The notes beneath the pieces are model-generated. The model did not search any database, was not told the origin of the DNA, and saw only the letters and a program-made list of their open reading frames with translations. A stretch of DNA of 64,000 nt from a virus (lineage: Duplodnaviria; Caudoviricetes): the IMG/VR virus record IMGVR_UViG_3300050509_000415, positions 5,253-69,252 of that record; one strand, given 5' to 3'. Below, piece by piece: positions 5,800 to 64,000 of this stretch. The translations under genes and the position numbers were made by a program. Within the stretch, counting starts at the first letter, position 1. Every line of letters begins with the position of its first letter.

Positions 5800-6773
5800 C
5801 AGTCAAGCCGCTTGCGCGTAATACGAAGTATCAGGCTTCCGTCGGTGTCTTCGAGGACGCGATATCTTATTGCCACATCGTTCGATAGAACCTCCTCGCC
5901 AACCGGGTTATCCCCGATGCAGAAGGCGCGGTCGCCGCTATCATCGTCGGCCATCAATTCGATCGTCCGATCCGTCGCCGCCATGGCCAGGGTAATGGAA
6001 TTGGCCGGTGGTAACCGATCGACCGGTTCGGGTCGCCCTTTCACGACGGCCACCGCGCGCTCCAAATCCCTCTTGGACGCGCCTTGGCGGGCTTGGTCTA
6101 CCAGCCTGTCCCGGTACTCCGGAGGCACCTGGAGGGCCACTGCAAGCCGCGTATGGCCTATCTCTTTTACTTCCTTCTCGCTGAAGTGTGTGGCCACTTC
6201 GACACACTTCATAGCCTGGGTTCTACCAAGGCCGGCCTCGGCCCGGGTCCACTGCCCAAACTCGGCATACTTGGGCTTACCATCCTTGGTCTGCCGCATG
6301 CGCCACAATCCGCGGACGTGGACGTCGCGAAGCATGACCCCGAGTCGGTGGTAGTTCTTCGCCATCTCGTTCTTGAGCTTACGGATGGCCTCGACGGTAT
6401 CGTCCAGGGACGCCTCGGTTAGGACTTCGACCTGTGCAAACCCGGTCTCAAAGGTTTTCATCCCATCAAAGTTGGTTGGCAACCGTTCGAGTTCAAACGC
6501 CAACTGCGTACCCTCTATCGTTCGTCCGTCGTCCAATTCAACCTCGGCGTCACCGCAGAATGGGCAACGTAGAAAATGTGTCGTATCGCTGTAGCCACCG
6601 CAGTCGCAGTCGACCAGTTCGTCGGGGTCGCAGTTCTGGTCGATCCAGGTGGCCATCCGTTCGACGCGGGTGTCCTGCGACCCGGTGCTTAGGAGTCCCA
6701 AGCGGGTAAGCTCTTCGTTCAGAACGTCGTGTCGTAAATCACGGGGAGAAATTCCCCAGACCTTTTTACCCAT
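5799..6773 (-). CDS. Zn-finger plus helical (DUF3102-like) putative DNA-binding protein
   Basis: CDC...CPFCG, followed by a segment (YHRLGVML...FGQW...GLGRTQAMK) resembling DUF3102-type phage proteins. Stop and start overlap the polB start. Confidence 0.45.
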   Translation of the reverse strand: MGKKVWGISPRDLRHDVLNEELTRLGLLSTGSQDTRVERMATWIDQNCDPDELVDCDCGGYSDTTHFLRCPFCGDAEVELDDGRTIEGTQLAFELERLPTNFDGMKTFETGFAQVEVLTEASLDDTVEAIRKLKNEMAKNYHRLGVMLRDVHVRGLWRMRQTKDGKPKYAEFGQWTRAEAGLGRTQAMKCVEVATHFSEKEVKEIGHTRLAVALQVPPEYRDRLVDQARQGASKRDLERAVAVVKGRPEPVDRLPPANSITLAMAATDRTIELMADDDSGDRAFCIGDNPVGEEVLSNDVAIRYRVLEDTDGSLILRITRKRLD

Positions 6774-7328
6774 TGCGACCGGAGAACTGCTTGCATTCGG
6801 CTGGAAAGAATGACTTCCAGATAGATATCTTCTTCATGGTTGCGTTTCCCTTTCGGCAATTACACGTTACACACATGCTGGCACGATATTTTCGATGTCG
6901 TGTAAACCGCCGTTTGATAGTGCTAGGACGTGGTCCATCGTCAACCGATTGGACGCACAGCCGCAGTAAGCACACCGGTAATCATGAAGCTTGAGTATAA
7001 TCTGCCACTGCTCTCCGTTTACCCCTCGTCCGCCCTTGCCTAGACGCCGACCGCGTGTACCGCTGCACTTTATCATCTCGTGACATTCTTTAAATGAACG
7101 GTTTGTATTCTGTTCTAACCAACGTCGTACCAACCACTTGGGTTCTTTAGACTTCTTGGTTCGATAGAAAACCCGACCATATTCTCTACGCGGTTCGGGG
7201 TTTTTCCAGTAATAGTCGCTACAGCGACTTCTGTCACAAGTCCTACATAAAGCGCCTACACGCGACTCAGGAGTCAACTCGACTTCACATCGCGAGCAAG
7301 TAGTTCGTCGATGACCCTTCTTTCCCAC
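6766..7328 (-). pseudogene. HNH endonuclease interrupted by a +2 frameshift in a (TG)n run
   Basis: Frame 1 reads RCAYCG...TMDHVLALSNGGLHDIENIVPACV* (stop at 6867-6869). The missing TCNCRKGN continues in another frame to the stop at 6766. Removing one GT from TGTGTGTAACG restores ACVTCNCRKG. Confidence 0.8.
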
Positions 7329-7796
7329 TTATACCCAGACGTACCCTTGGGTGGGTACTTCCGTCTTCCGCTCATCGTCCGAAATCTCGGACGCCGGAAT
7401 GATCTTTACATGGCCACTTTTGATGTACTCGGGGAGTGTTACATATTCACCCCATGCGAGTTCTTTGCGCTTACGCTCGACGTAGCGTTCGCTATAGCCA
7501 GGCGTGGTTCCTTTACCGGGTTTCCAACCCTCGTCTTTTGGACATTCGGTACCGTCTGGTCGAAACCATGCGTATTCGCAGTTGCGCTCGAACGCGGTTG
7601 ACGCTTCAAGCGTGTCGTCTTCTGAAATGCTGTAGTCTTCACCACAGCACGTACAGGTGACCCGGTTGGGATTACGACCGAAGCGGGAAAAGAAAACCGA
7701 CTTGGCTTCGGCTTCCGGCGCTTCGATGAAAATGTGTCCCCAATCGAGCTTCTGATTCCCACCGCTGTGCATGTCGTGAAAATGCGTCCAAACCAT
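7329..7796 (-). CDS. conserved phage hypothetical protein (CTCCGED motif)
   Basis: 155 aa with normal composition, contiguous with its neighbours. The FIEA...RFGRNP.RVTC.CCGEDY pattern is familiar from phage hypotheticals. Confidence 0.7.
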   Translation of the reverse strand: MVWTHFHDMHSGGNQKLDWGHIFIEAPEAEAKSVFFSRFGRNPNRVTCTCCGEDYSISEDDTLEASTAFERNCEYAWFRPDGTECPKDEGWKPGKGTTPGYSERYVERKRKELAWGEYVTLPEYIKSGHVKIIPASEISDDERKTEVPTQGYVWV

Positions 7797-7803
7797 ACCC
7801 CAT

Positions 7804-8424
7804 CTATGCCGCGATCAGGGCGTCCACGACTTTGCGCGCCAACGCAAACGCCTCGGAGTAAGACGCAATGCGTAACCCGAGTTCGGTACGACGGTCCAGA
7901 ATGTCCATTGCGGCGGACGTGAGGTCGCCGTCAACCTTAACCACAATACGCACGGTCTCGCGAACCCGAACGTCGCCGGCAAACAACCGGTCGATCATGG
8001 CGATGTGCCGGGCCTTCTCCGAGTCCTCTTCCTGGTCGCCATCGACGATGAGCCACTCTTCAAACGGCGGACAGTCCGTAAGGGCGTGCGACGAAAGCCG
8101 CGACATGGCGATGGGGTGCCGGCTCTTCGCCCGGTCGTCCCGGCGTAACGCCCCGCGTTGCCGGTGCATCCACTTCTTCGCCCGGTTATTCGCGTTCCAC
8201 TGCACGTATTGTTTCAGGGTCTTGCCGCGCGTCGGATCGTAATCCGGCAACACGGCGAAAACCGCGAGTAACATCTCTTGGACTACGTCTTCGAGCTCGA
8301 CGTCGGCCGGACACTTCCAACGGCGCATCAGACCCATTGCCATCGAACGCCATTGGGACCGGGTGCGGCGTACGAATTCGGCGAACGACCCACCGTTACG
8401 CAGCCTGATGAGTGCTTCTTCCAT
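7804..8424 (-). CDS. sigma-70-family (ECF-like) RNA polymerase sigma factor
   Basis: Region-2-like segment ELEDVVQEMLLAVFAVLPDYDPTRGKTLKQYVQWNANNRAKKWMHRQRG. 206 aa with a helical C-terminus. Confidence 0.75.
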   Translation of the reverse strand: MEEALIRLRNGGSFAEFVRRTRSQWRSMAMGLMRRWKCPADVELEDVVQEMLLAVFAVLPDYDPTRGKTLKQYVQWNANNRAKKWMHRQRGALRRDDRAKSRHPIAMSRLSSHALTDCPPFEEWLIVDGDQEEDSEKARHIAMIDRLFAGDVRVRETVRIVVKVDGDLTSAAMDILDRRTELGLRIASYSEAFALARKVVDALIAA

Positions 8425-8477
8425 CTGCCGCTATCTTTGACACGTTATGGGCAAGATGCAAGCAAAAAAAGCGATAT

Positions 8478-9428
8478 TTATCCTACATCCAGGCCCGCGG
8501 CGATCAGTCGACTATGCAGCGCATCGGTGGACAAATCGGCGGCGTCAAGACCCGGCGGAAGTTCCACCCGGGTGACATCGGTCCAACGCTGTAGGACCTT
8601 GAGCGCACATGCTACGCGCTCGCCGGCTTTGTCCGGATCTGACGCGATTATAACGCGCTTGAATTTCGATAGCTTCGAGTAGACGGTGAGACCTGGGTTG
8701 GAACCACCGAGTGCGGCGACATAATCGGCCCCTGCTCGCTCACAGGCCAGTGCATTGAATGCACCTTCGGTGACTACGACCTGCGAATCCGCCTCGTCCT
8801 CGGGCCACCAACGCTCGCCAAAGATGACAGTGCGGTCGGGGTTGGTTTCGGGCTTGGGGGTGAGGTATCGTGGGCGGGCTCCGACCATCGTACGGGCCAT
8901 GAAGCCGTGTAGGATCCCGGCCTTGTCATGAATAGGAAATATGACGCGGTTGGCTAATTCCCCATATGTTCCGACGTGAAGCATCCATCCGAGAATTTGG
9001 TGTTTAGTAACCCCACGACCTTCTAGGTAGTTTGACGACCAGTTGAATTTCCATTCGTCGTATGCGCGATTGGCAATTTTCACACAACCGTCGGGCAACC
9101 CCGTAAACTTCGGCTTACCCGCGAACCCACCGCCGACGCTAATCGTAAGTCTTTCCGGCACTGCCGAAACGGTATCGCCTTCGACCCCATTTGCGCGCAG
9201 CCACGCTTTGGCCGAATCCGTATCCAGGTTCAGGACTTGGCTAACCAGCGAAACAACGCCTCCGCCGGCTTGGCATGACCAACAGTGGAAAAGACCAGTT
9301 TCCGCCTGCATTTGCCAGGACGGATTACGATCGCTGTGCAGGGGACACTTGGCTTGGTACTCGCGGCCTACGCGCTTGGCATCGATGTCGAGCAGAGCGA
9401 GCAGACGTGGGACGTCGTAGGTTTTCAT
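8478..9428 (-). CDS. dnaG: DnaG-type DNA primase (CHC2 Zn finger + TOPRIM)
   Basis: CPLHSDRNPS...FHCWSCQAGG, VIFPI..GFMAR, VVVTEGAFNALA and IIASDPDKAG. Confidence 0.93.
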   Translation of the reverse strand: MKTYDVPRLLALLDIDAKRVGREYQAKCPLHSDRNPSWQMQAETGLFHCWSCQAGGGVVSLVSQVLNLDTDSAKAWLRANGVEGDTVSAVPERLTISVGGGFAGKPKFTGLPDGCVKIANRAYDEWKFNWSSNYLEGRGVTKHQILGWMLHVGTYGELANRVIFPIHDKAGILHGFMARTMVGARPRYLTPKPETNPDRTVIFGERWWPEDEADSQVVVTEGAFNALACERAGADYVAALGGSNPGLTVYSKLSKFKRVIIASDPDKAGERVACALKVLQRWTDVTRVELPPGLDAADLSTDALHSRLIAAGLDVG

Positions 9429-9580
9429 CGCTCTCTGTCTTCGAGCACTTTGGCGATTCTATTCAGGGCTGAAACGATTTGATTTCCCTGCCGATGCATC
9501 GTATCAAGAACATCCCAGATCAAAATCGAGGCGAGTGAGAACGCGACTATAAATACAATAAATATGAATTCGATGGTCAT
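9425..9580 (-). CDS. small membrane protein (51 aa)
   Basis: MTIEFIFIVFIVAFSLASILIWDVLDTMHRQGNQIVSALNRIAKVLEDRER*. ATGA overlaps at both ends. Confidence 0.6.
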   Translation of the reverse strand: MTIEFIFIVFIVAFSLASILIWDVLDTMHRQGNQIVSALNRIAKVLEDRER

Positions 9581-9828
9581 TTAAACTTTGCCCGCGCAAT
9601 GATCTTTTCCTCTTCGAGCAGATTCAGAAACTTCTGATACTCAGAGGTCATGTACTCGCCGCTACGCTTATGGGGCGACGGGGTTGTCTCCATCGCCTGG
9701 GGCGACTCGACCGCCGTATCGACATCCCATGGGTCCCGCGGTTCGGGCTCTTCATCGCGCGCATAGGCCTCCACGATGTCTCGAATCTCGGAAGCAGGCT
9801 TGCGCTTGTACCGGCCTATCTCTCGCAT
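9577..9828 (-). CDS. hypothetical protein
   Basis: 83 aa ORF on the operon strand, with its stop overlapping the next start. Confidence 0.55.
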   Translation of the reverse strand: MREIGRYKRKPASEIRDIVEAYARDEEPEPRDPWDVDTAVESPQAMETTPSPHKRSGEYMTSEYQKFLNLLEEEKIIARAKFK

Positions 9829-9918
9829 CGGGTTTTCACCTTTTCGGGAAAAAGGGGACTGGGTCCAGACAGTTAGATGGATTTCTGAAAGGACCCGGTC
9901 CGCAGTCTGTACTTTGCT

Positions 9919-11343
9919 TTATGGCGCGGGGGCCACGTAGCGTTTGAGCTCGGCCGGCCGACAGTTGAATGTCAATCCGGAACGGGGATCGTGGTCAGCC
10001 TCAATGAGCAAGGGCCAATCGCCGTAGCGTTGCTTCAAGACGAGTATCTCGATGATATCCTTGGGTATCTCACGCCATAACCCGGGCACGTTACTCCCGA
10101 GGATTGTATCGGCAATTTGCACCCAACCACCGGAACCCATAATCGTTTCGCGGGATGGACGTTTATCAGGGCGATTCTCGACTTGCTTAAGGTTCTGCTG
10201 TGCCGTGAGAATCAGGTGCGTATTCGTTATCTTCGCGATGTCTTGGGTCCTGATAAGATTGGTCTTTTCCTCTTCTGGCCCCTTGAATTCGAAGGCTCGT
10301 TCCCACAAGTCCAACACGGCGACTTCGCAGGCGCTGTCGATGACCATACCGTGAATCGCCGAAAGCGCGTCTTCGTTGGCGTGCTTACCCTTGGTAACCG
10401 GTTGATCGACAAACCGTACGTAACTTGAGATCCGTTCTCGCTCGACCGCGAGAGCGGTCCTATCTTCTCGAGATAGCAGACCAGAAAGCATTTTGGTGCG
10501 ATCCAATCCCAAGGACATACAAGCAAACAAGTTGCAGAGCATGTCCGGAGGCATTTCCCACGCCCCCATAAGAACCTTGCGGCCCAATCCTTTATCGCCA
10601 ATTCGCGGAATCCCAGGTCCTTGGTGCAAGGCGATTTGTCCAGAGATGAGCGATTTACAAGCCCCGCTAACAGCGGTTATTACAGTAATCTTCCCTGGCA
10701 TCGTACCGGTCGTCAGTCGCCTAGTACCGTCATCGTTCAGGTCCAATCCGGGAATGCCAAACGGGTAATGCTCGTCGGCGAGCTCGTCTAACAAAGCCTC
10801 TGCCCGGTCACGCAGCCGACGCGGGTCGCTCATCAAGCCGCGGTATCCCGAGCCCCCCTCGAGCGACGTAGCCACGGATCGTGCCATCGCACGCACCCGG
10901 TCGGCCGGAGCGGCCGTATCCTGCAACGTCCGTAATAGCTCGGGGAGTGGACCGCGTACGCATTCAACCCGTGCTCGGTCCCAAAGCAGCATCTCGACGT
11001 GGTGCTTAAGGTTTGGCGGCACCTCGGTCCGGCTGGCTAGTAGGGTCTCGAGATACGGCGTGTCCGCCTTACCACCGGTAAGCTGGTGCAGGGTTGCGAT
11101 GTCGAACGCTAGGTCACGACGTGCGATTTCCGTCAACCCTTCCCATATTACCTGGTGCTCGTCGGCTAGGAACACATCGGGGCGCAATCGCTGCGTTAAG
11201 CCCTTGCGGACTTCGGTGTCAATACAGGCTGCGATGACAAGAATTTGTTCATTCACGGCGTCTACGTGAATATCAAGCTTATCCAGCTTCGGCGTCGGAC
11301 GTTCGGGGATGGGCGCGGGGCCCTCGATCGGGCGTCGCTTCAC
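9919..11343 (-). CDS. dnaB: DnaB-like replicative helicase
   Basis: DnaB N-domain (EQILV...VFLADEHQVIW), Walker A-like AVSGACKS, Walker B VAVLDL, QQNLKQVENRPDKRPSRETIMGSGGWVQIAD and VLKQRYG. Confidence 0.88.
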   Translation of the reverse strand: MKRRPIEGPAPIPERPTPKLDKLDIHVDAVNEQILVIAACIDTEVRKGLTQRLRPDVFLADEHQVIWEGLTEIARRDLAFDIATLHQLTGGKADTPYLETLLASRTEVPPNLKHHVEMLLWDRARVECVRGPLPELLRTLQDTAAPADRVRAMARSVATSLEGGSGYRGLMSDPRRLRDRAEALLDELADEHYPFGIPGLDLNDDGTRRLTTGTMPGKITVITAVSGACKSLISGQIALHQGPGIPRIGDKGLGRKVLMGAWEMPPDMLCNLFACMSLGLDRTKMLSGLLSREDRTALAVERERISSYVRFVDQPVTKGKHANEDALSAIHGMVIDSACEVAVLDLWERAFEFKGPEEEKTNLIRTQDIAKITNTHLILTAQQNLKQVENRPDKRPSRETIMGSGGWVQIADTILGSNVPGLWREIPKDIIEILVLKQRYGDWPLLIEADHDPRSGLTFNCRPAELKRYVAPAP

Positions 11344-11666
11344 TTTCCCTTCGACGCGAGTACGCGCTTCACGTGCTCTTCGAGCTTATCGTAGAACATG
11401 AGGCTGGCCCAGCCGTCGACCATGAGACGGGCGCGCTGGAATAGCTCGCTCGGTGTTTCACCACCCGTTCCATCGTCATTCATGTGCAACGGGCCGAGTC
11501 GGACGATCACCGACGGCAATTCAAACGAATTGTACTGAACGGGACTGTACTTCTCTGTACCCGAGCTTACTTCGATCTCGTGGATGTTCAGTTCCTGGCA
11601 GGTGCGCTCGGGCGCGCCCGGCTTCGTTTCGGCGGGCGCGGCTTGTGGTTTGACGATACGTTTCAT
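11340..11666 (-). CDS. hypothetical protein
   Basis: 108 aa, overlapping the helicase start (GTGA-type coupling). Confidence 0.65.
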   Translation of the reverse strand: MKRIVKPQAAPAETKPGAPERTCQELNIHEIEVSSGTEKYSPVQYNSFELPSVIVRLGPLHMNDDGTGGETPSELFQRARLMVDGWASLMFYDKLEEHVKRVLASKGK

Positions 11667-11673
11667 CTTGGCC

Positions 11674-11919
11674 TCAGTCGTGGATAAACGCTTTGTGGTC
11701 GCCGTCTACGGTACGTAGCTTGGCCCAGTACGCGCGTTCGGCCGCGGTAAGGCTTAGGGCCCGTCCGGACGAAAGGAACGCATCCGCGGCGGCAAGGCGC
11801 ATCTCATCGCGAACCGTACCGGACACCCGCCCGCAGCTCATGGTCCCGTCCACGTAACACGAGAAAGCATGACCATTTACGGACCCATCGAACCGTCTGT
11901 CTGCAAAGTCAATCTTCAT
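11674..11919 (-). CDS. hypothetical protein
   Basis: Start revised to MKIDFADRR at 11919, which overlaps the upstream stop. Confidence 0.55.
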   Translation of the reverse strand: MKIDFADRRFDGSVNGHAFSCYVDGTMSCGRVSGTVRDEMRLAAADAFLSSGRALSLTAAERAYWAKLRTVDGDHKAFIHD

Positions 11920-12175
11920 AGTCGTTTCCCTGCTCAATTATGGCTTTGACAGCCGAGGTCGTAAGGGTTTGCCCGTCGAGCCATGTTATGATGCAGCAGG
12001 CTCCTTCGACGATACGTTTAACCGCGTTGTACGGTTGCCATTTACCATCGACCAGACGTCTACTTCCCTTCCCGAGCCCTGGTTTTCGGAATAGCTTCCG
12101 GATCCGGTGGTTGGCTTCGTCTATCTGATAGATACTGCCGTTTTCGGTCGTCACGACTAGGTACTTAGGCTGCAT
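11909..12175 (-). CDS. hypothetical protein
   Basis: Start revised to MQPKYLVVTTENGSIY at 12175. The longer annotated N-terminus overlaps the upstream gene. Confidence 0.6.
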   Translation of the reverse strand: MQPKYLVVTTENGSIYQIDEANHRIRKLFRKPGLGKGSRRLVDGKWQPYNAVKRIVEGACCIITWLDGQTLTTSAVKAIIEQGNDYED

Positions 12176-12440
12176 TGCCCGACCCCGGTTTGAATACCCC
12201 CAAGCAGTAGGCCCGGTGGATGTCGGCGGCCTTGCGCAGCGCATCGACGATTTGCCGGGTTTCGTCCGGAAGCGTCGCCAGGCCGTAAGGTCCCGGGTCC
12301 CGCTCGATTTCGTTTGCCATGTCGAGGGCTCGCTGGATGGATGGTGTGAAAACCTCGTCGCCGATCTCAATACGGATGCCGTCTTGGGTCACGCGCACCC
12401 GGACCCGTATCGAAGAGGGCGGTGGAACCGTATCCTTCAT
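12165..12440 (-). CDS. hypothetical protein
   Basis: 91 aa, coupled to both neighbours. Confidence 0.6.
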   Translation of the reverse strand: MKDTVPPPSSIRVRVRVTQDGIRIEIGDEVFTPSIQRALDMANEIERDPGPYGLATLPDETRQIVDALRKAADIHRAYCLGVFKPGSGNAA

Positions 12441-12688
12441 CGCCCGATACCCATGCGGGCCATGGCGTGGCCGGCGGAGATTACAATTGGGTCCGCGTTG
12501 TGGATATCGTTGGAGTCGTCGAAGTCCGCGCGGTCAACAGCGGAAGATGTGTCATAAACACACTCGGACGTATCTTCGACACACCAGCCAAAGCCCTGCA
12601 ACGCACCACCCCAGTACCAGGCGTAGATACACCCACAGGGACCCTTAAGCAGGGTCATCGCTTCTTTCTTCCCGAACAGTCTTGCCAT
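12437..12688 (-). CDS. hypothetical protein
   Basis: 83 aa, ATGA overlap downstream. Confidence 0.55.
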   Translation of the reverse strand: MARLFGKKEAMTLLKGPCGCIYAWYWGGALQGFGWCVEDTSECVYDTSSAVDRADFDDSNDIHNADPIVISAGHAMARMGIGR

Positions 12689-12695
12689 GTGTCCC

Positions 12696-12986
12696 CTATG
12701 CCGCCGGTTTCTTGGACCGCAGCGCGGCGTCGAATGCGTCGTCTACGGCGGCGTGGGCAAGCTCTCGGTCGTTCCTACACGCCTCGACCATAAGCATCGC
12801 CAGCGCCTTGCCGAAGGGCATCTTCGGGTCCTTCCTGGCCGTGGTCTGCGCACAGGCAAGTAACGCGACGGCGATTTCCCTTGGATTTGCGATGCGCCCC
12901 GAGGCAGCCGTGTAATTGACCAATCCGTCAACCAAGGCGACCTTGATCTTGGACAAAAGCACTACAATCGGCGGTTCGCCGGACAT
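12696..12986 (-). CDS. hypothetical protein
   Basis: Start revised to MSGEPPIVV at 12986 (TGATG overlap with the upstream stop). Confidence 0.6.
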   Translation of the reverse strand: MSGEPPIVVLLSKIKVALVDGLVNYTAASGRIANPREIAVALLACAQTTARKDPKMPFGKALAMLMVEACRNDRELAHAAVDDAFDAALRSKKPAA

Positions 12987-13309
12987 CACTTCCCTCTGCG
13001 CCGCTCGGCATGTGTCTTTAGCCACTCCTTTACCTTCTTGGGCGAGCCGTGACAGGCGCTTGGGGCGTAGTTGTAGATCCACGAGCAGAGCCCGTGTAGG
13101 CCCACCCGGGAATTTAGGTCGGCCCGCGACAGGGCACCGAAGAGGTCGTTCTCGAGCACGCACTTGAGAAAATCGCCGGTCGGGATACCGCGCTCGATGT
13201 AAAGCCTAAGCCCTTCCCTAAGATGTTCGGGCACGTGAACGCTAAACTTCAGTAGGTCGTCATCGTCCATTGTGTAGGTGCCTTCTTCGGTCCATGTACG
13301 GTAGGTCAT
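12986..13309 (-). CDS. conserved phage hypothetical protein (YIERGIPTGDFL..VLENDL)
   Basis: Start revised to MTYRTW at 13309 (ATGA overlap). The motif is familiar from small phage proteins. Confidence 0.75.
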   Translation of the reverse strand: MTYRTWTEEGTYTMDDDDLLKFSVHVPEHLREGLRLYIERGIPTGDFLKCVLENDLFGALSRADLNSRVGLHGLCSWIYNYAPSACHGSPKKVKEWLKTHAERRRGK

Positions 13310-13590
13310 GATCTGCGACGCCTTGTAGATTTGGTAACAGTGCCGTAGCCGTCGCCGTAGCCGTTGCCGTAGCCGTCGCCGTTGCCGTAGCCGTAGCCGT
13401 AACCGTAGCCGTAGCCGTCGCCGTCGCCGTAGCCGTAGCCGTAGCCGTTGCCGTAGCCGTTGCCGTAGCCGTTGCCGTTGCCGTAGCCGTTGCCGTAGCC
13501 GTTGCCGTAGCCGTCGCCGTAGCCGTAGCCGTAGCCGTCGCCGTAGCCGTAGCCGTCGCCGTTGCCGTAGCCGTAGCCGATCGGTTTCAT
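13306..13590 (-). CDS. Gly-Tyr/Asn/Asp repeat protein
   Basis: MKPI-(G[YND])x39-GTVTKSTRRRRS. ATGA overlaps at both ends support this frame. Confidence 0.7.
   Translation of the reverse strand: MKPIGYGYGNGDGYGYGDGYGYGYGDGYGNGYGNGYGNGNGYGNGYGNGYGYGYGDGDGYGYGYGYGYGNGDGYGNGYGDGYGTVTKSTRRRRS
13345..13578 (-). repeat. tandem hexamer array GGC-(T/A/G)AC, 39 units
   Basis: Directly visible on the plus strand as gtagcc/gttgcc/gtcgcc units. There is one GGT variant. Confidence 0.97.
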
Positions 13591-13922
13591 GACTTGGTTC
13601 CCCAGTTATCTGGAACCGGAACACGGAAGATTTCGCTATCAGCCGGAATCTCTACATCGGCACATGGGCGCAGATCCGTCTTAACCAATGGATTAGCTAC
13701 CATCGCGGCGAACCCCTGGCCCGTCCACGAGAAGACGTGCAATGCCCTGGTGAGAACGATCTTCCCGGGCTTCGCGGTCTCATCGACATCGCCTGCAAAA
13801 ATCCATCCTCGATCGACCACCACTACAGCGCGTTTACCCGGTTTGGGTTGCACAGCTTCGACCGAATCGGCTTTGATGTACTTAACCCCGTTAATCGTAA
13901 GTTCGGTCACTTCTTGTTTCAT
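13587..13922 (-). CDS. conserved phage protein (DUF6948-like) that commonly precedes GYG-repeat ORFs
   Basis: AVVVVDRGWIFAG...LTRALHVFSW. From recollection, this family is typically paired with Gly-rich repeats. Confidence 0.7.
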   Translation of the reverse strand: MKQEVTELTINGVKYIKADSVEAVQPKPGKRAVVVVDRGWIFAGDVDETAKPGKIVLTRALHVFSWTGQGFAAMVANPLVKTDLRPCADVEIPADSEIFRVPVPDNWGTKS

Positions 13923-14095
13923 GGTTCCTCTTTTTGCAAACAGACCCGTATCTCATGCGGCGTAAGTTGGTCCTTGGCGTCACCCGGGTGGCGGTTGCAT
14001 CGGCGGCACTTGCTCTTCTTGCTTTTACCGTCTACCGAAACGGCCCACACAAGGACGAAGACACCGTCGCGCGAGAGGCAATGCTTAACCGGCAT
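13919..14095 (-). CDS. small hypothetical protein (58 aa, CxxC)
   Basis: MPVKHCLSRDGVFVLVWAVSVDGKSKKSKCRRCNRHPGDAKDQLTPHEIRVCLQKEEP*. It exactly fills the gap, with an ATGA overlap downstream. Confidence 0.55.
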   Translation of the reverse strand: MPVKHCLSRDGVFVLVWAVSVDGKSKKSKCRRCNRHPGDAKDQLTPHEIRVCLQKEEP

Positions 14096-14435
14096 TGTCC
14101 GGCCACTCGTCTGGGTTACAGCCGTGGGTATCCAGCCAAATGCGTGCCGCTTCGCCCTTAGGGGTCAACCAACCGGCGCTGACTACACCACCGTGCTCGG
14201 TAAACTCGAGCTTATCCAAGCAATATAGAGAAACCCACGATAAACCGGCTTGTGGTGTGTCCTCGTCGTTCAGACCCAACCATTCCTGAAACTGTTTACG
14301 GTTGGGCCAACTCTTCTCAAACGGCACATCGTAGTCCATCGTGTAGTACCAGAGCAACCAATGCAGCATCGTTAGAGCCGTTTCGGGACTCCCGCATCCA
14401 CAAATCGGTAGATCGGACCAAGGATCGAAATTCAT
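14085..14435 (-). CDS. conserved phage hypothetical protein (CGCG.P...LD..EFTEHG...WLTPKG)
   Basis: Start revised to MNFDPW at 14435 (ATGA overlap). Winged-helix-like C-terminus. Confidence 0.7.
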   Translation of the reverse strand: MNFDPWSDLPICGCGSPETALTMLHWLLWYYTMDYDVPFEKSWPNRKQFQEWLGLNDEDTPQAGLSWVSLYCLDKLEFTEHGGVVSAGWLTPKGEAARIWLDTHGCNPDEWPDNAG

Positions 14436-14653
14436 ATTTCTAACTCCTCTAGGACATCGTGTCGGAAGAAGCCGGCACATCGCACCGAGCAGAACGCGCG
14501 TTTGGACTTCGCCGGCAGATCATCCCCACAGTACAAACACCATCCGCACGGCGCGGGCGCGAACGTACAGCAAAGCGCCACCTCGCCCGCGGTTCCGCAT
14601 TTACGGCCACACGCCGGACATTGCGAAGGCCGGGCATACCCAGTTACAGCCAT
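14432..14653 (-). CDS. Cys-rich Zn-binding protein
   Basis: CPACGRKC, CGWCLYCG and FCSVRC. Confidence 0.6.
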   Translation of the reverse strand: MAVTGYARPSQCPACGRKCGTAGEVALCCTFAPAPCGWCLYCGDDLPAKSKRAFCSVRCAGFFRHDVLEELEI

Positions 14654-15630
14654 TGCTTAAGCCCCAGGACCAGGTCGCAGTACTGCGCCCGAACTACATC
14701 CGACGGGGTCAACCCTTTGACCTCGGTTAGACGTTTGATGGTCTGAAGCCGGGTGGTAAGGGCTCTGGCAAGTTTGATGGCCGACTGCATTTCCGAGTCG
14801 AGCCGGGCGTCGGGTGGCTTGCCCACCGCGGCGACGATCTCTTTGGTTTCCTCGTAGGTCTTACCCACCACCTGGGCTACGACTTCGGTCTGGACTTCGG
14901 GGTCCTTGATCTTGATGATCTCGTCGACCTGGCAGGTCTTGAGTTCGGCGCTTGCGTGGGCTGCGGCGACGGCGGGTGCCGCCCGTTGGACCCTTGCTTT
15001 CGCCTGGGCGACCTTCCTGGGACTACACTTGAGTTCCTTGGCGACTTCCTCGACCGCGTTCGGCTTGGTCCCCTCAAATGCAAAATTTGCATTTGGCGTT
15101 GTTTCTAAGACGGCGGAATTGCTCAGTTCCGGAAAATCGGACCCCCCGAACTCGTCGGCCGCGCCGTGCATCTTGTCTGGGTCGACGCACGGTGGCTTCT
15201 TCGGCTTCGACGGACGCTGCGCTTCCTTGATCACCCGGTTTTTGGGATCGAGTTGCTTGACGATCTCGATCCTTTCCGTGACGAGCCGGTCCCACTCGTA
15301 CGAGTCGACCTCGACCCGGGCGATATTTTCATCGATGTGGCGCAGTCGGGACCGGAGCGGGTCGTGTCGGTAAACCCGCACCCGTATGGTCTTTTTCTTG
15401 AGCAGGATGTGCGCGTGGATGCGGCCCTCGCCGGCATCGACCCGGTATTTCCTAGGCGTTGTTTCGTCCTGGGCAGAAATCCGATGGACAATCACCGGGT
15501 TAAGCATCCCGTTCAGGGCGATGGAGTCGGCGATACGGGCGATGTGCCCTTCGTCGTGTCGCTTGGGGGCGTCAAATTCAAGGTCCCTAATCGGCACGTC
15601 GAGTTCGGCTTCAAAGTCGTCATCGGTCAT
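14644..15630 (-). CDS. ParB/Srx N-terminal-domain protein with HTH
   Basis: IARIADSIALNGMLNPVIV...YRVDAGEGRIHA, then HIDENIARVE, then an HTH-like EEVAKELKCSPRKVAQAK. Confidence 0.85.
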   Translation of the reverse strand: MTDDDFEAELDVPIRDLEFDAPKRHDEGHIARIADSIALNGMLNPVIVHRISAQDETTPRKYRVDAGEGRIHAHILLKKKTIRVRVYRHDPLRSRLRHIDENIARVEVDSYEWDRLVTERIEIVKQLDPKNRVIKEAQRPSKPKKPPCVDPDKMHGAADEFGGSDFPELSNSAVLETTPNANFAFEGTKPNAVEEVAKELKCSPRKVAQAKARVQRAAPAVAAAHASAELKTCQVDEIIKIKDPEVQTEVVAQVVGKTYEETKEIVAAVGKPPDARLDSEMQSAIKLARALTTRLQTIKRLTEVKGLTPSDVVRAQYCDLVLGLKQWL

Positions 15631-15726
15631 CGTAATGTCCTTTCAGGTCCCGTAACGCGACACTGTCTCATATGTACACGACCGGCCGGGAGGTCAATGT
15701 AGGTAAGTGCGAATTATTACCCACCG

Positions 15727-15918
15727 TCATCGTTTTTCGGACCCAGTTACGTGGTATTTCCGACAAGCCGGACATCGGTATACCCGTAACCGGAAACCGG
15801 CGCTGCGGTGCGCCATCTTCGCGGCACGTTCCGAGACATAACCGCGTTTTCCAGTATCACTGCAATTGTACCAGGCGTGTTCTGGGTCAAGGACGGGGGG
15901 CATGTATGGGTCGGTCAT
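15727..15918 (-). CDS. small Zn-binding phage protein (KRGY...RVYRCPACRKYHVT)
   Basis: Start revised to MTDPY at 15918. Familiar phage motif. Confidence 0.7.
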   Translation of the reverse strand: MTDPYMPPVLDPEHAWYNCSDTGKRGYVSERAAKMAHRSAGFRLRVYRCPACRKYHVTGSEKR

Positions 15919-16446
15919 GGGGTCATCTGAACGTCTACATGCCGCGCGCGGCATTTTAGTGTTTAACAAACAATTAGAAAATCACCGAGACTCAGAAAGC
16001 AGCGGGCAACCGGCCGGTGAGCTAATGCAAAGAAGATCGGCAAATAGCACGGTGCAAGGAATCGCAGATTGTTCCACTTCCTGGAGGAAACCCACGCTCT
16101 CCCTTCGTACGCTATCTGGGAGAGGGTCAGGTCCTCTAGAGGAAGACTCCAGAAGACGCATAACTGGTCCGGGTAACCCTCGGAAGAACCATCAACCCCC
16201 GTCTGCGATCCGCTGCTCTGATTCCTCTCGATGAATCACATATCCGGAAAAAGGAATTTCGACTTGGGCGTTAACAATTCCCACCCGGTAGCTCGGGGCC
16301 ATTACTGAGTCGAGTTCTCTAAAACCGGAGAACAGTCGTAAGATAAACATAAAATCTCTGTAAGTCCTTCACCTAGACGGGTAACCCGGATAGGGAAGGC
16401 AAGGAGATTAAAGGGGGGTGATCTACCATCCGTCCCAATTTGAACA

Positions 16447-24885: not shown

Positions 24886-25192
24886 TCTCGCGCTCTAGGC
24901 CGGCGAAGCGCTGTTCGAATTCTGCTCGGCTTAGCATTGCAGTACGCATTTCGCGTAGCTCGACATGAATGAGTTGGATAGTTTCAAGCTTGCCGGTAAG
25001 TGCCGTAAGGGCGACATCGTGTGCCACGTCCTTCTTCTCAAGCGAATCCACCTTTTGGACGATGGTGTCAAAATCTTTATCTCGTCGCCGCTGAATATAA
25101 GCCAGCATCGGCAACAAAACTAGCGATATTACACCGCTAAGCAATCCGATTACGGCCGCGACAATCAAGCCGGTTGCTGTTGGTTCCATCAC
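24860..25192 (-). CDS. single-TM plus coiled-coil protein, holin- or spanin-like
   Basis: N-terminal TM (LIVAAVIGLLSGVISLVLLPMLAYI) and a coiled coil, immediately downstream of the endolysin. Confidence 0.55.
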   Translation of the reverse strand: MMEPTATGLIVAAVIGLLSGVISLVLLPMLAYIQRRRDKDFDTIVQKVDSLEKKDVAHDVALTALTGKLETIQLIHVELREMRTAMLSRAEFEQRFAGLEREIRESRRKD

Positions 25193-26091
25193 AGCCCTGC
25201 CGCATATCGGGACTTAGATCCGACCACACCGTCTGCTACGAGCCCGTGTGACGCCTGCCATGCCTGCGTCGCCTTCTTCGTCTTCTGTCCGTAAATCCCG
25301 TCGACCTTGAGTCCGGCGCCGTCTCGGTTAAGTACCGCCTGCCAGACCTTGACGTCATCGCCGTGGACACAGAACTTCAGCGACCGTACTTCGGGTTCCG
25401 TCACCCGGGTGACATCGGAACCGCCGTCGCCCCCCGGGGGAACTATATCGGGAATCATCGGAACGGTGGCAAGGTCCTGCTCTTCGGGGATGCCGAGTTC
25501 GTGTTCGCGGATTTTTAATAGGTCCAGGCGACCAATGATCTTGTTGTTCGCAATGCGCCAGTTTCCCTGGGCGTCCTTTGCAACCGTCTGAGACATATAT
25601 AGACGGCAGCTCGGTCCGGGTGGCTTTCCATTTACGGCATGGAACTGGCCATAATTCGCCGTATCACAGCTTACCGGGTTGCCGTTTGGGTCGTAGGAGA
25701 TCTCGGTTACTATCAGACTATGGGGTCCGAACCGGTTTAGAACCTGGACTCCGTCGCCAATACGGATGTCCCAACTACAACCCGGCCAGTAGCCGCGCCA
25801 GGCGTAGGCGGCGAATCTTTTTACACGGGTTAAGTTTTCACCTGGAAGCCAAGTATTTCCGCCGTCTTTACGGTTGGCCCAAGGACACTTCTGCTTCAGG
25901 TCGACACATTCGAGCGCCAGCCTAGACAAAAGATCTTCGCAGCAGGAGAGGTACTGACCGTGACCGTCTTTCATGGTCCATCGCCCTTCCGTTGTTAGGC
26001 GGCCGAACCCCTCGGGATCCTCGTAAATCGAAAACCCCGTGGTACCACCACATAGTTCAATTGCGCGACTAGAAAGGGTTCTTCGGTTCAC
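25189..26091 (-). CDS. endolysin-like protein with C-terminal peptidoglycan-binding domain
   Basis: PG_binding_1 pattern GDDVKVWQAVL...LKVDGIYGQKTKKATQAWQASHGLVADGVVG. The N-terminal domain is unassigned but has SCCEDL and GPHSLIV (possible Cys/His dyad). Confidence 0.75.
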   Translation of the reverse strand: MNRRTLSSRAIELCGGTTGFSIYEDPEGFGRLTTEGRWTMKDGHGQYLSCCEDLLSRLALECVDLKQKCPWANRKDGGNTWLPGENLTRVKRFAAYAWRGYWPGCSWDIRIGDGVQVLNRFGPHSLIVTEISYDPNGNPVSCDTANYGQFHAVNGKPPGPSCRLYMSQTVAKDAQGNWRIANNKIIGRLDLLKIREHELGIPEEQDLATVPMIPDIVPPGGDGGSDVTRVTEPEVRSLKFCVHGDDVKVWQAVLNRDGAGLKVDGIYGQKTKKATQAWQASHGLVADGVVGSKSRYAAGL

Positions 26092-26114
26092 CTACCAAGG
26101 GTATGCTACGGGGA

Positions 26115-26142
26115 TTGACAGAACAAACATAGGTCTTATCAA
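26115..26142 (+). promoter_or_regulatory. putative promoter TTGACA-N15-TTATC(AA) driving the array and RAMP-like gene
   Basis: Perfect -35 at 26115-26120 and TTATC at 26136-26140. The predicted start site (~26149) coincides with the start of the array. Confidence 0.7.
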
Positions 26143-26145
26143 AGT

Positions 26146-26245
26146 AGTTGTGCTGGGCATGGCCCTGCGGGGCGATGCAAGGTCTGGTTTGGCCGTGTAT
26201 GGCAAGGTCGGGCTTGGCGCGGCAAAGCAAGGAATGGCTCGGCTG
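26146..26245 (+). ncRNA. pentamer-periodic (GGY-NN)x20 array, candidate guide RNA
   Basis: 20 consecutive 5-nt units. Position 2 is G in 20/20, position 3 is pyrimidine in 19/20, position 1 is G in 14/20, and positions 4-5 vary freely. Confidence 0.8.
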
Positions 26246-26254
26246 AGGACCACG

Positions 26255-26827
26255 ATGAAAACAGTAAAAGTAGTGATCGAAGGTACATCCCCGTATTTAA
26301 TGCATAAATTTAGTGACGAAGCGGCGGCAGGGCGGACAACTCGCGCAACATTGGTTGAACAGAGGGTTCCTCGCGAAGAAGCCGAAAAGGTCGCTTATAG
26401 GGACCAAGACGGCGGGCTGTACTTCAACGGGTACTCAATCGCCAAAGCAATCGCTTCGGCCGGAGGGGCCCACAAACAACGCGGGTCTCGGAAAAGCCTG
26501 AAATATGTTGTCCCGGCCGCGGTTCGGATCGTAGATGACGCAGTAAAACTACGGAAACTAGACGGTCGAGTCCAGAAGGATTTTGAGGTCGATTCTAGAC
26601 CGGTTACAATCCCTGCTACCAAAGGTCGGGTGTTACGGCATAGGCCCAGGTTTGACGAATGGCGGGCGGAATTCGAACTCAAGATTTTCGAGAATCTTAT
26701 TGAACCAAAGACGGTTCATCAACTGCTCAACGAAGCTGGCGAGCAGGTTGGAATAGGAGATTTCCGACCTGAGAAATCTGGTCCATTTGGCTGTTTTCGC
26801 GTTGTCGAGTGGAAAGAGCTAGTATAA
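26255..26827 (+). CDS. RAMP/Cas7-like protein (190 aa), candidate effector of an RNA-guided system
   Basis: Start revised to MKTVKV (GAGGAC RBS). Motifs VKVVIEGTSPYLMH, GGLYFNGYSIAKAIASA, RPRFDEWRAEFELKI and the G-rich loop GEQVGIGDFRPEKSGPFGCFRV follow RAMP order. Confidence 0.7.
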   Translation: MKTVKVVIEGTSPYLMHKFSDEAAAGRTTRATLVEQRVPREEAEKVAYRDQDGGLYFNGYSIAKAIASAGGAHKQRGSRKSLKYVVPAAVRIVDDAVKLRKLDGRVQKDFEVDSRPVTIPATKGRVLRHRPRFDEWRAEFELKIFENLIEPKTVHQLLNEAGEQVGIGDFRPEKSGPFGCFRVVEWKELV

Positions 26828-63671: not shown

Positions 63672-64000
63672 GGTTTCACCCGCTTCAATGCCGCGCTGGC
63701 GGCGGCCCGCGTCTTATTTCCGACCAGGCCGTCGAGCGTCAGCCCGTGCTCGCCCTGGAAGAGAACCGTGGCGGTCTCGGTTGCGGGACCGAAGATGCCG
63801 TCGCACGCAAGGTGTGCGCCGAGCTGGTTAAGCACCATCTGCCAGGCCTTAACCTCGGGTCCACGGTCGCCCCGGTGCAGGGTCGAAGCCTTGAGGGGTA
63901 CGATCGAGCCGAGAACTTTGCCGACGACCGTCTTGAACGTGGCGGCCGAGCCGGGCATGGGCTCGTTTAGGGCGACATACTGAGCGTGGACGGCGGCGGA
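63668..64000 (-). CDS. C-terminal part of a peptidoglycan-binding-domain protein (second endolysin candidate; 5' end outside the window)
   Basis: TLHRGDRGPEVKAWQMVLN...CDGIFGPATETATVLFQGEHGLTLDGLVG. The frame is open to the window edge. Confidence 0.8.
   Translation of the reverse strand, partial: SAAVHAQYVALNEPMPGSAATFKTVVGKVLGSIVPLKASTLHRGDRGPEVKAWQMVLNQLGAHLACDGIFGPATETATVLFQGEHGLTLDGLVGNKTRAAASAALKRVKP

What the first reader, a model, noticed from the sequence alone, without database searches (positions are those of the whole stretch)
26146..26245. The NN positions spell a testable target sequence
The NN code in order is TG TG AT CC GG GA AA CT TT CG AT AA CG TT GC AA AA AT TC TG. If each pair reads two target bases and skips one (inference), the target is TG.TG.AT.CC.GG.GA.AA.CT.TT.CG.AT.AA.CG.TT.GC.AA.AA.AT.TC.TG or its reverse complement. 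If the skipped base were the codon wobble position, targeting would be insensitive to synonymous escape. I found no convincing match in this window by eye, but that search was not exhaustive. A competing phage, mobile element or host gene is the expected target.
Basis: inference. Interest (0 to 1): 0.85.

Follow-up and report, generated by a model that had tools for sequence, protein, structure and literature searches.

The report
Phage VIPR guide aimed at endolysin
The 100-base five-letter repeat is the guide RNA of a phage VIPR system (a CRISPR-related DNA silencer described in 2026), and read two letters in every three it spells a variant of a conserved motif in the lysis gene next door, most likely to silence rival phages while the phage's own copy escapes.

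Summary
It is the only such array in the 69-kb IMG/VR phage record.

A Vipr gene (26255-26827) starts 9 nt downstream. It has a RAMP fold, matches SUSP1 Vipr full length at E 1.4e-12, and keeps the GGY-contact residues. Of 80 related loci, 79 carry such arrays.

The best skip-1 match in the record lies about 300 bp away, in the adjacent endolysin gene (25796-25854, minus strand). It sits in the coding frame with the skipped bases on wobble positions. It matches 25/40 overall and 22/28 over units 2-15. Shuffled guides reach that block score 3 times in 600 across the record, and never in 4000 in that gene's frame.

The guide fits the endolysin family consensus better than the phage's own copy.

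I found no site with at least 80% match in any collection I could search, so the real target allele is still missing.

This scan has reported VIPR arrays in at least 61 other genomes, and guides beside near-targets in several of them. This is a new member of a known kind.

The parts
26115..26142 (+). Putative promoter of the vrRNA-vipr unit: TTGACA (26115-26120), a 16-nt spacer, then TATCAA (26137-26142). The expected transcription start is near 26148-26151, in unit 1 or 2 of the array.
Evidence: Read directly. It is not called by the consensus scan, because the second hexamer lacks the final T. This is inference only.
26146..26245 (+). vrRNA guide array of 20 GGY/NN pentamers. NN code: TG TG AT CC GG GA AA CT TT CG AT AA CG TT GC AA AA AT TC TG.
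   Evidence: Arrays of the same form sit on the vipr strand in 79 of 80 related loci.
26245..26249 (+). Shine-Dalgarno-like GAGGA. It overlaps the last base of unit 20 and lies 5 nt before the vipr ATG.
   Evidence: Read. Relatives with upstream arrays also end 1-50 nt before the ATG, with GGAG-like stretches and no conserved tail.
26255..26827 (+). vipr gene: a 190-aa RAMP (Cas7-like) protein, P0004.
   Evidence: phrog_4652 at E 1e-22. PDB 36pp_D 'SUSP1 Vipr protein' at E 2e-6 for the single sequence and E 1.4e-12 full length for the family profile. AF2 model pLDDT 84, pTM 0.81. 70 Foldseek matches at E<=1e-3; those listed are Csm3/Cas7-type CRISPR effector chains. 1334 homologs.
25796..25854 (-). 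Near-target of the guide: codons 80-99 of the endolysin ORF counted from 26091 (residues 41-60 from Met 25974), peptide TWLPGENLTRVKRFAAYAWR. NN match is 25/40 overall and 22/28 for units 2-15. The skipped bases are the third codon positions.
25189..26091 (-). Endolysin-like gene, probable start at Met codon 25974 (P0249, 261 aa). It has an uncharacterised N-terminal domain and a C-terminal PG_binding_1 domain, and is transcribed divergently from the vrRNA-vipr unit.
   Evidence: Pfam PF01471. PHROG endolysin families match the C-terminal part. The Atlas and the protein collection hold the form that starts at residue 40. Homologs are aligned in A2.

Best explanation
The array is the single guide RNA (vrRNA) of a minimal VIPR system carried by a lytic-type phage. 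The mechanism below is inferred from the SUSP1 and P. fulva systems. One Vipr protomer binds each GGY and flips it out, and the filament presents the NN dinucleotides. These pair with double-stranded DNA, two bases in every three, over a 59-bp footprint. The bound complex blocks transcription. No nuclease is encoded nearby.

What is shown here is the following. Read by that rule, the guide spells [C/W]-W-[I/M]-P-G-[D/E]-[K/N]-L-[F/L]-R-[I/M]-[K/N]-R-[F/L]-A-[K/N]-[K/N]-[I/M]-S-[C/W]. This is a variant of the conserved W-I-P-G-E-N-L-x-R-I-K-R-F-A motif of the endolysin family to which the gene next door belongs.

My inference is that the guide silences the endolysin gene of competing phages that carry the matching allele. 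The phage's own copy escapes because 15 of the 40 read bases differ. Three of these are amino-acid changes away from the family consensus. Two are switches to the rare synonymous codon families TTA and AGA. The rest lie in the last five units.

The vrRNA has the sense of the endolysin coding strand. It can therefore pair with the template DNA strand but not with the endolysin mRNA.
For: VIPR membership:
- The Vipr profile matches SUSP1 Vipr full length at E 1.4e-12. H17, R130, D169, F170 and R171 align with SUSP1 H17, R138, D177, W178 and R179.
- These positions are invariant or nearly so in 31 homologs.
- The fold is Cas7/Csm3-like.
- GGY/NN arrays sit on the vipr strand in 79 of 80 related viral loci. 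Position composition is G93/G97/Y96 with positions 4-5 variable.

Target:
- The best skip-1 site in the whole record is in the adjacent endolysin gene.
- The best 14-unit block is 22/28 at skip 1, against 19, 20 and 20 at skips 0, 2 and 3. Of 600 shuffled guides, 3 reach 22.
- In the reading frame of that gene, 0 of 4000 shuffles exceed 20/28, and 1 of 4000 reaches 25/40.
- In 11 of 12 endolysin homologs, the best guide-compatible site is the homologous motif.
- P0250 allows 25/28 for units 2-15.
- The guide codes I/M, F/L and I/M where the family has I, I/L and I, while the own protein has L, T and V.
- The own Leu87 is TTA (3.4% of Leu codons) and Arg92 is AGA (5.5% of Arg codons), exactly where the guide reads CT and CG.
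- At family level, the best skip-1 hit lies within 400 bp of its own array in 13 of 132 arrays, against 4.3 for shuffled guides.
- The three strongest near hits (the window, L022 and L033) are each 250-300 bp from the array.

The rule, the 80% threshold and the lack of self-targeting come from the preprints.
Against: - No site with at least 80% NN match was found anywhere I could search.
- Units 16-20 (AA AA AT TC TG) match no sampled allele.
- The homolog comparison is at protein level only (codon-compatible maxima), because no DNA of any endolysin homolog could be fetched.
- The overall self score of 25/40 is within the genome-wide shuffled maximum (mean 22.8, maximum 26). Only the block score, the location and the family comparison make it stand out.
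- The frame criterion is weak: shuffled guides also land in the wobble frame about half the time.
- The idea to look at the neighbour gene came from earlier notes of this scan, so the location test is not blind.
- The skip rule has not been shown experimentally for this Vipr clade, which is about 26% identical to SUSP1 Vipr.
- Expression of the vrRNA could not be checked.
Confidence: 0.6

Rival explanations
1. Self-regulation. The guide acts on the phage's own endolysin gene through the partial match. Units 2-15 match at 79%, and the site lies about 120-180 bp inside the gene. This would delay lysis until Vipr or the vrRNA is titrated.
For: The only significant match found is the own gene. The vrRNA-vipr unit is divergent from, and directly abuts, the endolysin start. 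VIPR represses from either strand, according to the preprint.
Against: The match is 62.5% overall, below the 80% used for natural targets. The preprints found no self-targeting hits and report that perturbing NN pairing abolishes silencing. The 3' five units, where R-loop formation starts in SUSP1, match at only 3/10. The family consensus fits the guide better than the own copy does.
Confidence: 0.12
2. The resemblance to the endolysin motif is chance or a historical remnant. The current target, if there is one, lies in an unsampled competitor, satellite or host gene unrelated to endolysins.
For: No site at 80% or more was found. Units 16-20 fit no allele. The total score of 25/40 is within the genome-wide null. 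The host and close relatives of the phage are unsampled.
Against: The block score reaches p of about 0.005 genome-wide and below 3e-4 in the gene's frame. The homologous motif is the best site in 11 of 12 homologs. Adjacency is enriched across the family.
Confidence: 0.13
3. The array is mainly a Vipr-binding leader that autoregulates vipr translation, because its last unit overlaps the ribosome-binding site. On this view the NN letters carry no targeting information.
For: Only 9 nt separate the array from the ATG, and the Shine-Dalgarno-like stretch overlaps unit 20. There is no room for a 3' tail. The same layout is seen in L028 and L049.
Against: NN positions are hypervariable across 191 family arrays, many of which lie downstream of vipr, far from any start codon. 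This rival does not explain the skip-1 match to the neighbouring gene. It is compatible with the main explanation as an added function.
Confidence: 0.05
4. The repeat is coding: an N-terminal Gly/Ala-rich extension of the protein from GTG 26039 or ATG 26159, as one public gene call has it.
For: The frame is open from 26039. P0127 is a 222-aa gene call that starts inside the array.
Against: The periodicity is 5 nt in all three codon phases. M1 is invariant and most homologs are 188-195 aa. In relatives the arrays lie at varying, non-triplet distances from the ATG and also downstream of the gene.
Confidence: 0.01

Closest known systems
VIPR systems: type II exemplars of Escherichia phage SUSP1 and a Pseudomonas fulva prophage (bioRxiv 10.64898/2026.04.26.720920 and 10.64898/2026.04.26.720927)
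   Same: Both have a small stand-alone RAMP protein with conserved GGY-contact residues. Both have a tandem GGY/NN vrRNA on the same strand next to the gene, and both are phage-borne. The published 1-nt skip reading gives the only standout match here. As in the published targets, the skipped base falls on the wobble position.
   Different: The proteins are only about 26-30% identical. This array has 20 units, against 9-16 in SUSP1. It has no 3' tail or pseudoknot, because it ends 9 nt before the vipr ATG. No vap gene is present. A single vrRNA forms the leader of the vipr mRNA. The inferred target is an endolysin motif rather than a satellite recombinase or a lysogeny regulator. Seven of the 20 units deviate from GGY.
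Solo and vrRNA-targeting vrRNAs with lower self-match than non-self match (bioRxiv 10.64898/2026.10.15.759431)
   Same: The guide matches relatives better than it matches self. This avoids autoimmunity while attacking close competitors.
   Different: In that work the near-self sites are vipr genes or vrRNA-tail junctions. Here the near-self site is a protein-coding lysis gene directly beside the guide.
Cas7/Csm3 backbone subunits of class 1 CRISPR effectors
   Same: They share the RRM/RAMP fold with a thumb and a G-rich loop, and they flip out bases periodically.
   Different: The RNA period is 5 nt and the target period 3 nt, rather than 6 and 6. Around the locus I saw no CRISPR repeat-spacer array and no other cas genes. 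I made no dedicated whole-record search for them.
Guide-beside-resistant-target arrangement reported by this scan in other phages (e1-5927332, e1-5700458, e1-5360538, e1-5823487, e1-5867817)
   Same: A VIPR guide lies next to a gene whose rival allele it spells, while the own copy differs at the read letters. One of those cases also involves an endolysin.
   Different: In those reports a sister phage with a matching allele was found. Here no matching DNA could be fetched. Those notes are unchecked AI reports.

Membership tests
VIPR system | Vipr protein: a minimal single-RRM RAMP homologous to characterised Vipr | tested here: met
   PDB 36pp_D SUSP1 Vipr matches at E 2e-6 for the single sequence and at E 1.4e-12 over residues 1-183 against 1-187 for the family profile. 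AF2 model pLDDT 84. Foldseek matches at E<=1e-3 number 70; those listed are Csm3/Cas7-type chains.
VIPR system | Residues that hold the GGY motif (SUSP1 H17, R138, D177, W178, R179) | tested here: met
   They align with H17, R130, D169, F170 (aromatic kept) and R171. H17 is nearly invariant, and R130, D169 and R171 are invariant, in 31 homologs.
VIPR system | vrRNA: at least 4 tandem GGY/NN pentamers next to vipr on its strand | tested here: met
   The array has 20 units and ends 9 nt upstream of vipr. 79 of 80 related loci have such arrays.
VIPR system | GGY conserved and NN hypervariable among related arrays | tested here: met
   In 191 unique arrays (3803 units), position 1 is G in 93%, position 2 is G in 97%, position 3 is Y in 96%, and positions 4-5 are near-uniform. 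No close relative with a different array was available. The only other assembly has an identical array.
VIPR system | Invariable structured 3' tail after the repeat tract (a pseudoknot in the SUSP1 clade) | tested here: not met
   Only 9 nt, including the Shine-Dalgarno-like stretch, separate the array from the ATG. Upstream arrays of relatives likewise lack a conserved tail. Multi-array relatives have varied spacers. The preprint describes varied architectures across its seven types, so this feature defines the SUSP1 clade rather than all VIPRs.
VIPR system | vap accessory gene beside vipr (described as 'typically' present) | tested here: not met
   No neighbour ORF within 2.5 kb is shared between the window and any of 95 related loci. 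The flanks are an endolysin gene and virion genes on the opposite strand.
VIPR system | Encoded by a virus or provirus | tested here: met
   This is an IMG/VR virus record. It carries a family-B DNA polymerase, a DnaB-like helicase, and portal, tail and endolysin genes.
VIPR system | Target read by the 1-nt skip rule, with natural targets at 80% NN match or more | tested here: inconclusive
   Skip 1 alone gives a standout block, 22/28, and it lies in the adjacent gene. No site at 80% or more was found in any searchable collection.
VIPR system | vrRNA is expressed and bound by Vipr, and the complex silences transcription | not testable with these tools
No experiment was possible.
CRISPR-Cas class 1 effector | Repeat-spacer array and further cas genes | tested here: not met
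   No tandem repeats at 24-29 kb. No Rfam family in the window. The neighbouring genes are lysis and virion genes. No dedicated CRISPR or cas search of the whole record was run.

The most novel reading that the evidence does not exclude
The guide and the recoded endolysin allele beside it form one linked module of weapon and shield. The roughly 740-bp vrRNA-vipr cassette silences the common allele of an essential late gene in co-infecting relatives. The adjacent resistant allele protects the carrier. Recombination would then spread cassette and allele together, much like a homing endonuclease with its immune site. The excess of near-targets next to arrays across the family (13 against 4.3) would then also hint at how VIPR guides arise or are retained. 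This question is open, because no adaptation machinery is known for VIPR.
Probability: 0.35. Interest if true: 0.7.

Novelty: new member of a known kind. Interest (0 to 1): 0.5.

Why it matters
VIPR was described only in 2026. Its known natural targets are satellites, lysogeny regulators and rival VIPR loci in Escherichia and Pseudomonas phages.

This locus extends the family to a minimal form without a tail or a vap gene. The form occurs in a large, mostly metagenomic clade: 1334 proteins, and 281 loci in IMG/VR.

It gives a concrete and cheap hypothesis to test. A phage would silence the lysis gene of its competitors through a conserved catalytic-domain motif, and would keep an escape-recoded copy next to the guide.

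If the linkage of guide and resistant allele is general, it explains how VIPR phages avoid self-targeting. It may also bear on where guides come from.

Tried and rejected
1. My first idea, from memory, was a TRAP-like platform of RNA-binding triplets. I dropped it once PDB and the literature identified Vipr.

2. Rfam gave no family.

3. Self-target by total score: 25/40 is within the shuffled maximum. I first dismissed it and later re-read it by block and location.

4. The guide against 80 related viral loci and 15 MAG loci, masked and unmasked, at skips 0-3, gave null-level scores.

5. 192 unique family arrays against 1.06 Mb of loci, with 6-unit seeds, gave no enrichment over shuffled guides.

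6. Exact 1-nt-skip sub-patterns gave the following.
- Viral contigs: units 6-15 gave 0 hits; units 3-10, 9-16, 13-20, 6-13 and 11-18 gave 148 hits.
- Genome contigs: units 11-20 gave 0 hits.
- Metagenome contigs: units 11-20 gave 2 hits.
- All 150 hits extend at chance level, 22.9% outside the seed.
- The best, L161 at 28/40, lies in a terminase gene with the skip on codon position 1.

7. Units 9-20 with up to 3 mismatches gave the following.
- 1103 bacterial genomes from the phyla of three MAGs that carry a vipr homolog gave 1 hit against 1 control hit. That hit (L148) lies upstream of pheS at 26/40.
- 33 whole VIPR-carrying viral records gave 0 hits.

8. Host identification failed.
- There are no related isolate phages.
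- Portal relatives occur only in metagenomes.
- The "myxobacterial" membrane protein has only Atlas look-alikes and one distant sequence homolog.
- I could obtain no Myxococcota handle, so myxobacterial genomes were not searched.

9. Endolysin homologs with DNA could not be found.
- None in isolate phages, in the loci held, or in 5 + 401 + 401 genomes.
- The cluster look-ups gave no names.

10. Self-locus near-target test on 132 arrays by score alone: 3 arrays reach 19/24 at skip 1, against 1.5 expected, which is weak.

11. Frame test: the wobble frame is also favoured by shuffled guides, at about 50%, so I gave it little weight.

Full report
**What is there.**
- Window 26146-26245 (+) is a run of 20 five-base units.
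- Position 2 is G in all 20 units. Position 1 is G14/T4/A2, position 3 is C14/T5/A1, and positions 4-5 are mixed.
- A GGY-NN caller run on both strands of the whole record finds this array and nothing longer than three units elsewhere.
- The record is an IMG/VR virus contig of 69,252 bp, linear, with CheckV completeness 51%.
- It encodes a family-B DNA polymerase, a DnaB-like helicase, and portal, tail and lysis genes.

**What it belongs to.**
- A 190-aa ORF (26255-26827, P0004) starts nine bases after the array.
- It matches phrog_4652 and the PDB chain 36pp_D, 'SUSP1 Vipr protein'.
- A profile of 31 homologs matches that chain full length at E 1.4e-12.
- In that alignment, SUSP1 H17, R138, D177, W178 and R179 line up with H17, R130, D169, F170 and R171 here. 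The structural preprint says these residues hold the GGY bases.
- The AlphaFold model (pLDDT 84, pTM 0.81) matches Csm3/Cas7-type subunits of CRISPR effectors.
- Three 2026 preprints describe VIPR. Vipr protomers polymerise on vrRNAs made of GGY/NN repeats.
- The NN bases pair with double-stranded DNA while every third target base is skipped.
- Targets are often coding, with the skip on the wobble position.
- Binding silences transcription, and natural targets are taken at 80% NN identity or more.
- The protein family is large: 1334 proteins at E<=1e-5 and 281 loci in IMG/VR.
- In 79 of the 80 loci fetched, GGY/NN arrays lie beside vipr on its strand. Their composition is G 93%, G 97%, Y 96%, then two variable positions.

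**How this locus differs from the studied examples.**
- There is one array of 20 units, against 9-16 in SUSP1.
- There is no 3' tail. The array runs into a GAGGA ribosome-binding site and the vipr ATG, as in relatives L028 and L049.
- No accessory gene is shared with any relative.
- No gene outside the cassette is shared with any of 95 vipr-bearing loci.
- A TTGACA-N16-TATCAA motif at 26115-26142 would start transcription at about unit 1 or 2. That is my reading of the sequence; the consensus scan did not call it.

**The target search.**
- By total score, the best site in the record (25/40 at skip 1) is within the shuffled range. I first set it aside.
- Related loci gave null-level scores.
- Exact sub-pattern scans of the viral, genome and metagenome collections gave only chance-level hits.
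- Scans allowing up to 3 mismatches also gave nothing. They covered 1103 bacterial genomes and 33 whole VIPR-carrying phage records.
- All 150 seed hits extend at 22.9% identity outside the seed.

**The neighbouring gene.**
- Earlier reports of this scan on other phages describe guides that spell the neighbouring gene as rivals carry it. I therefore went back to the 25/40 site.
- It is 25796-25854 on the minus strand. It lies inside the endolysin gene that starts divergently from the cassette, on its coding strand, exactly in frame. The offset from 26091 is 237 = 3 x 79, so the skipped bases are third codon positions.
- The own peptide is TWLPGENLTRVKRFAAYAWR. The guide codes [CW][CW][IM]PG[DE][KN]L[FL]R[IM][KN]R[FL]A[KN][KN][IM]S[CW].
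- Units 2-15 match at 22/28.
- In the whole record, this block score is reached by 3 of 600 shuffled guides. Skips 0, 2 and 3 give 19-20.
- Within the frame of this gene, none of 4000 shuffles exceeds 20/28, and one reaches 25/40.

**Own copy against the family.**
- The endolysin's N-terminal domain has homologs only in metagenomes.
- The family motif is N-[KT]-W-I-P-G-[EQ]-N-L-[IL]-R-I-K-x.
- Where the own protein has L82, T88 and V90, the family has I, I/L and I, and the guide codes I/M, F/L and I/M.
- Two further mismatches are synonymous family switches. Leu87 is TTA (3.4% of Leu codons in this phage) where the guide reads CT. Arg92 is AGA (5.5% of Arg codons) where the guide reads CG.
- At the level of codon compatibility, the homologous motif is the best guide site in 11 of 12 homologs. 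P0250 (64% identical) allows 25/28 in units 2-15. In 388 unrelated proteins the maximum total is 25.
- Units 16-20 fit no sampled allele. A loop one codon longer would place unit 20 (TG) on the conserved Trp. That is inference.
- I could obtain no DNA for any homolog.

**Family-level check.**
- For 132 arrays, I located the best skip-1 12-unit hit within each array's own locus.
- That hit lies within 400 bp of the array in 13 cases, against 4.3 for shuffled guides. Skips 0, 2 and 3 give 8, 3 and 5.
- The three strongest near hits are the window, L022 and L033. Each is 250-300 bp from its array, inside an ORF.
- The wobble frame is not discriminating, because shuffled guides also choose it about half the time.

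**Conclusion.**
- The NN positions do spell a target. It is a variant of a conserved motif of the endolysin family.
- The phage's own copy, 300 bp away, is a sub-threshold match at 62.5%.
- The most likely reading is attack on rival phages' endolysin genes with self-avoidance.
- The main rivals are regulation of the phage's own lysis gene, and a chance or relic resemblance.
- The real matching allele has not been found.
- The system is a new member of a known kind.
- The linkage of a guide with a recoded copy of its target is the part worth following up.

Noticed in passing
window 26039-26827 and 26159-26827 (+): The array is in frame with vipr. ORF finders, and one public gene call (P0127, 222 aa, from another assembly of the same phage), therefore give Vipr a false N-terminal extension. 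Several homologs of 210-258 aa in the family list probably have the same artefact.
   Followed up: partly
L035 (IMGVR_UViG_3300012971_000018, 111.9 kb, direct terminal repeats), 5816-16144: This phage carries at least 14 GGY/NN arrays around its vipr gene. One array has 82 units and one has 47.
   Followed up: no
L041 9415-9899; L045 3458-3947: These are single-register arrays of 97-98 units, far longer than the published 9-16. They are probably several vrRNAs in one register.
   Followed up: no
L007, L014, L034, L050, L060 (array regions): Sub-clades use different inter-vrRNA spacers. I saw 2 nt, 14-15 nt AT-rich (AATGAATTTAATT), 22-27 nt (CTCTGGCGAGAAATTTT...), and 46-48 nt GC-rich inverted repeats. 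These are probably different processing signals or tails.
   Followed up: no
L022 9567-9601 (+) and L033 11022-11056 (-): In two relatives the best skip-1 site of a guide (19/24) lies 250-300 bp from its array, inside an ORF of unknown family. This is the same arrangement as in the window.
   Followed up: partly
By sequence it has only three homologs: itself, a 92% variant on a sister-phage contig, and one 40% match. The host remains unknown.
   Followed up: partly
L133-L140 (genome contigs): The closest vipr genes in species-representative genomes are on contigs of Chthoniobacteraceae, Chthoniobacterales, Phycisphaerae, Hyphomicrobium and Opitutaceae MAGs, at 48-63% identity. These may be phage contigs that were binned with those MAGs.
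   Followed up: no
window about 63701-63865 (-) (G000:68953-69117): There is a second PG_binding_1 domain ORF (110 aa open frame) near the end of the record.
   Followed up: no
L060 1838-2059 (+); L043 2663-3502 (+): Some sub-clades have conserved neighbours of vipr. One is a 73-aa NrdR-like zinc-ribbon protein found in 10 loci. Another is a YqaJ-like recombinase found in 12 loci. These are candidate accessory genes, and both are absent from the window.
   Followed up: partly
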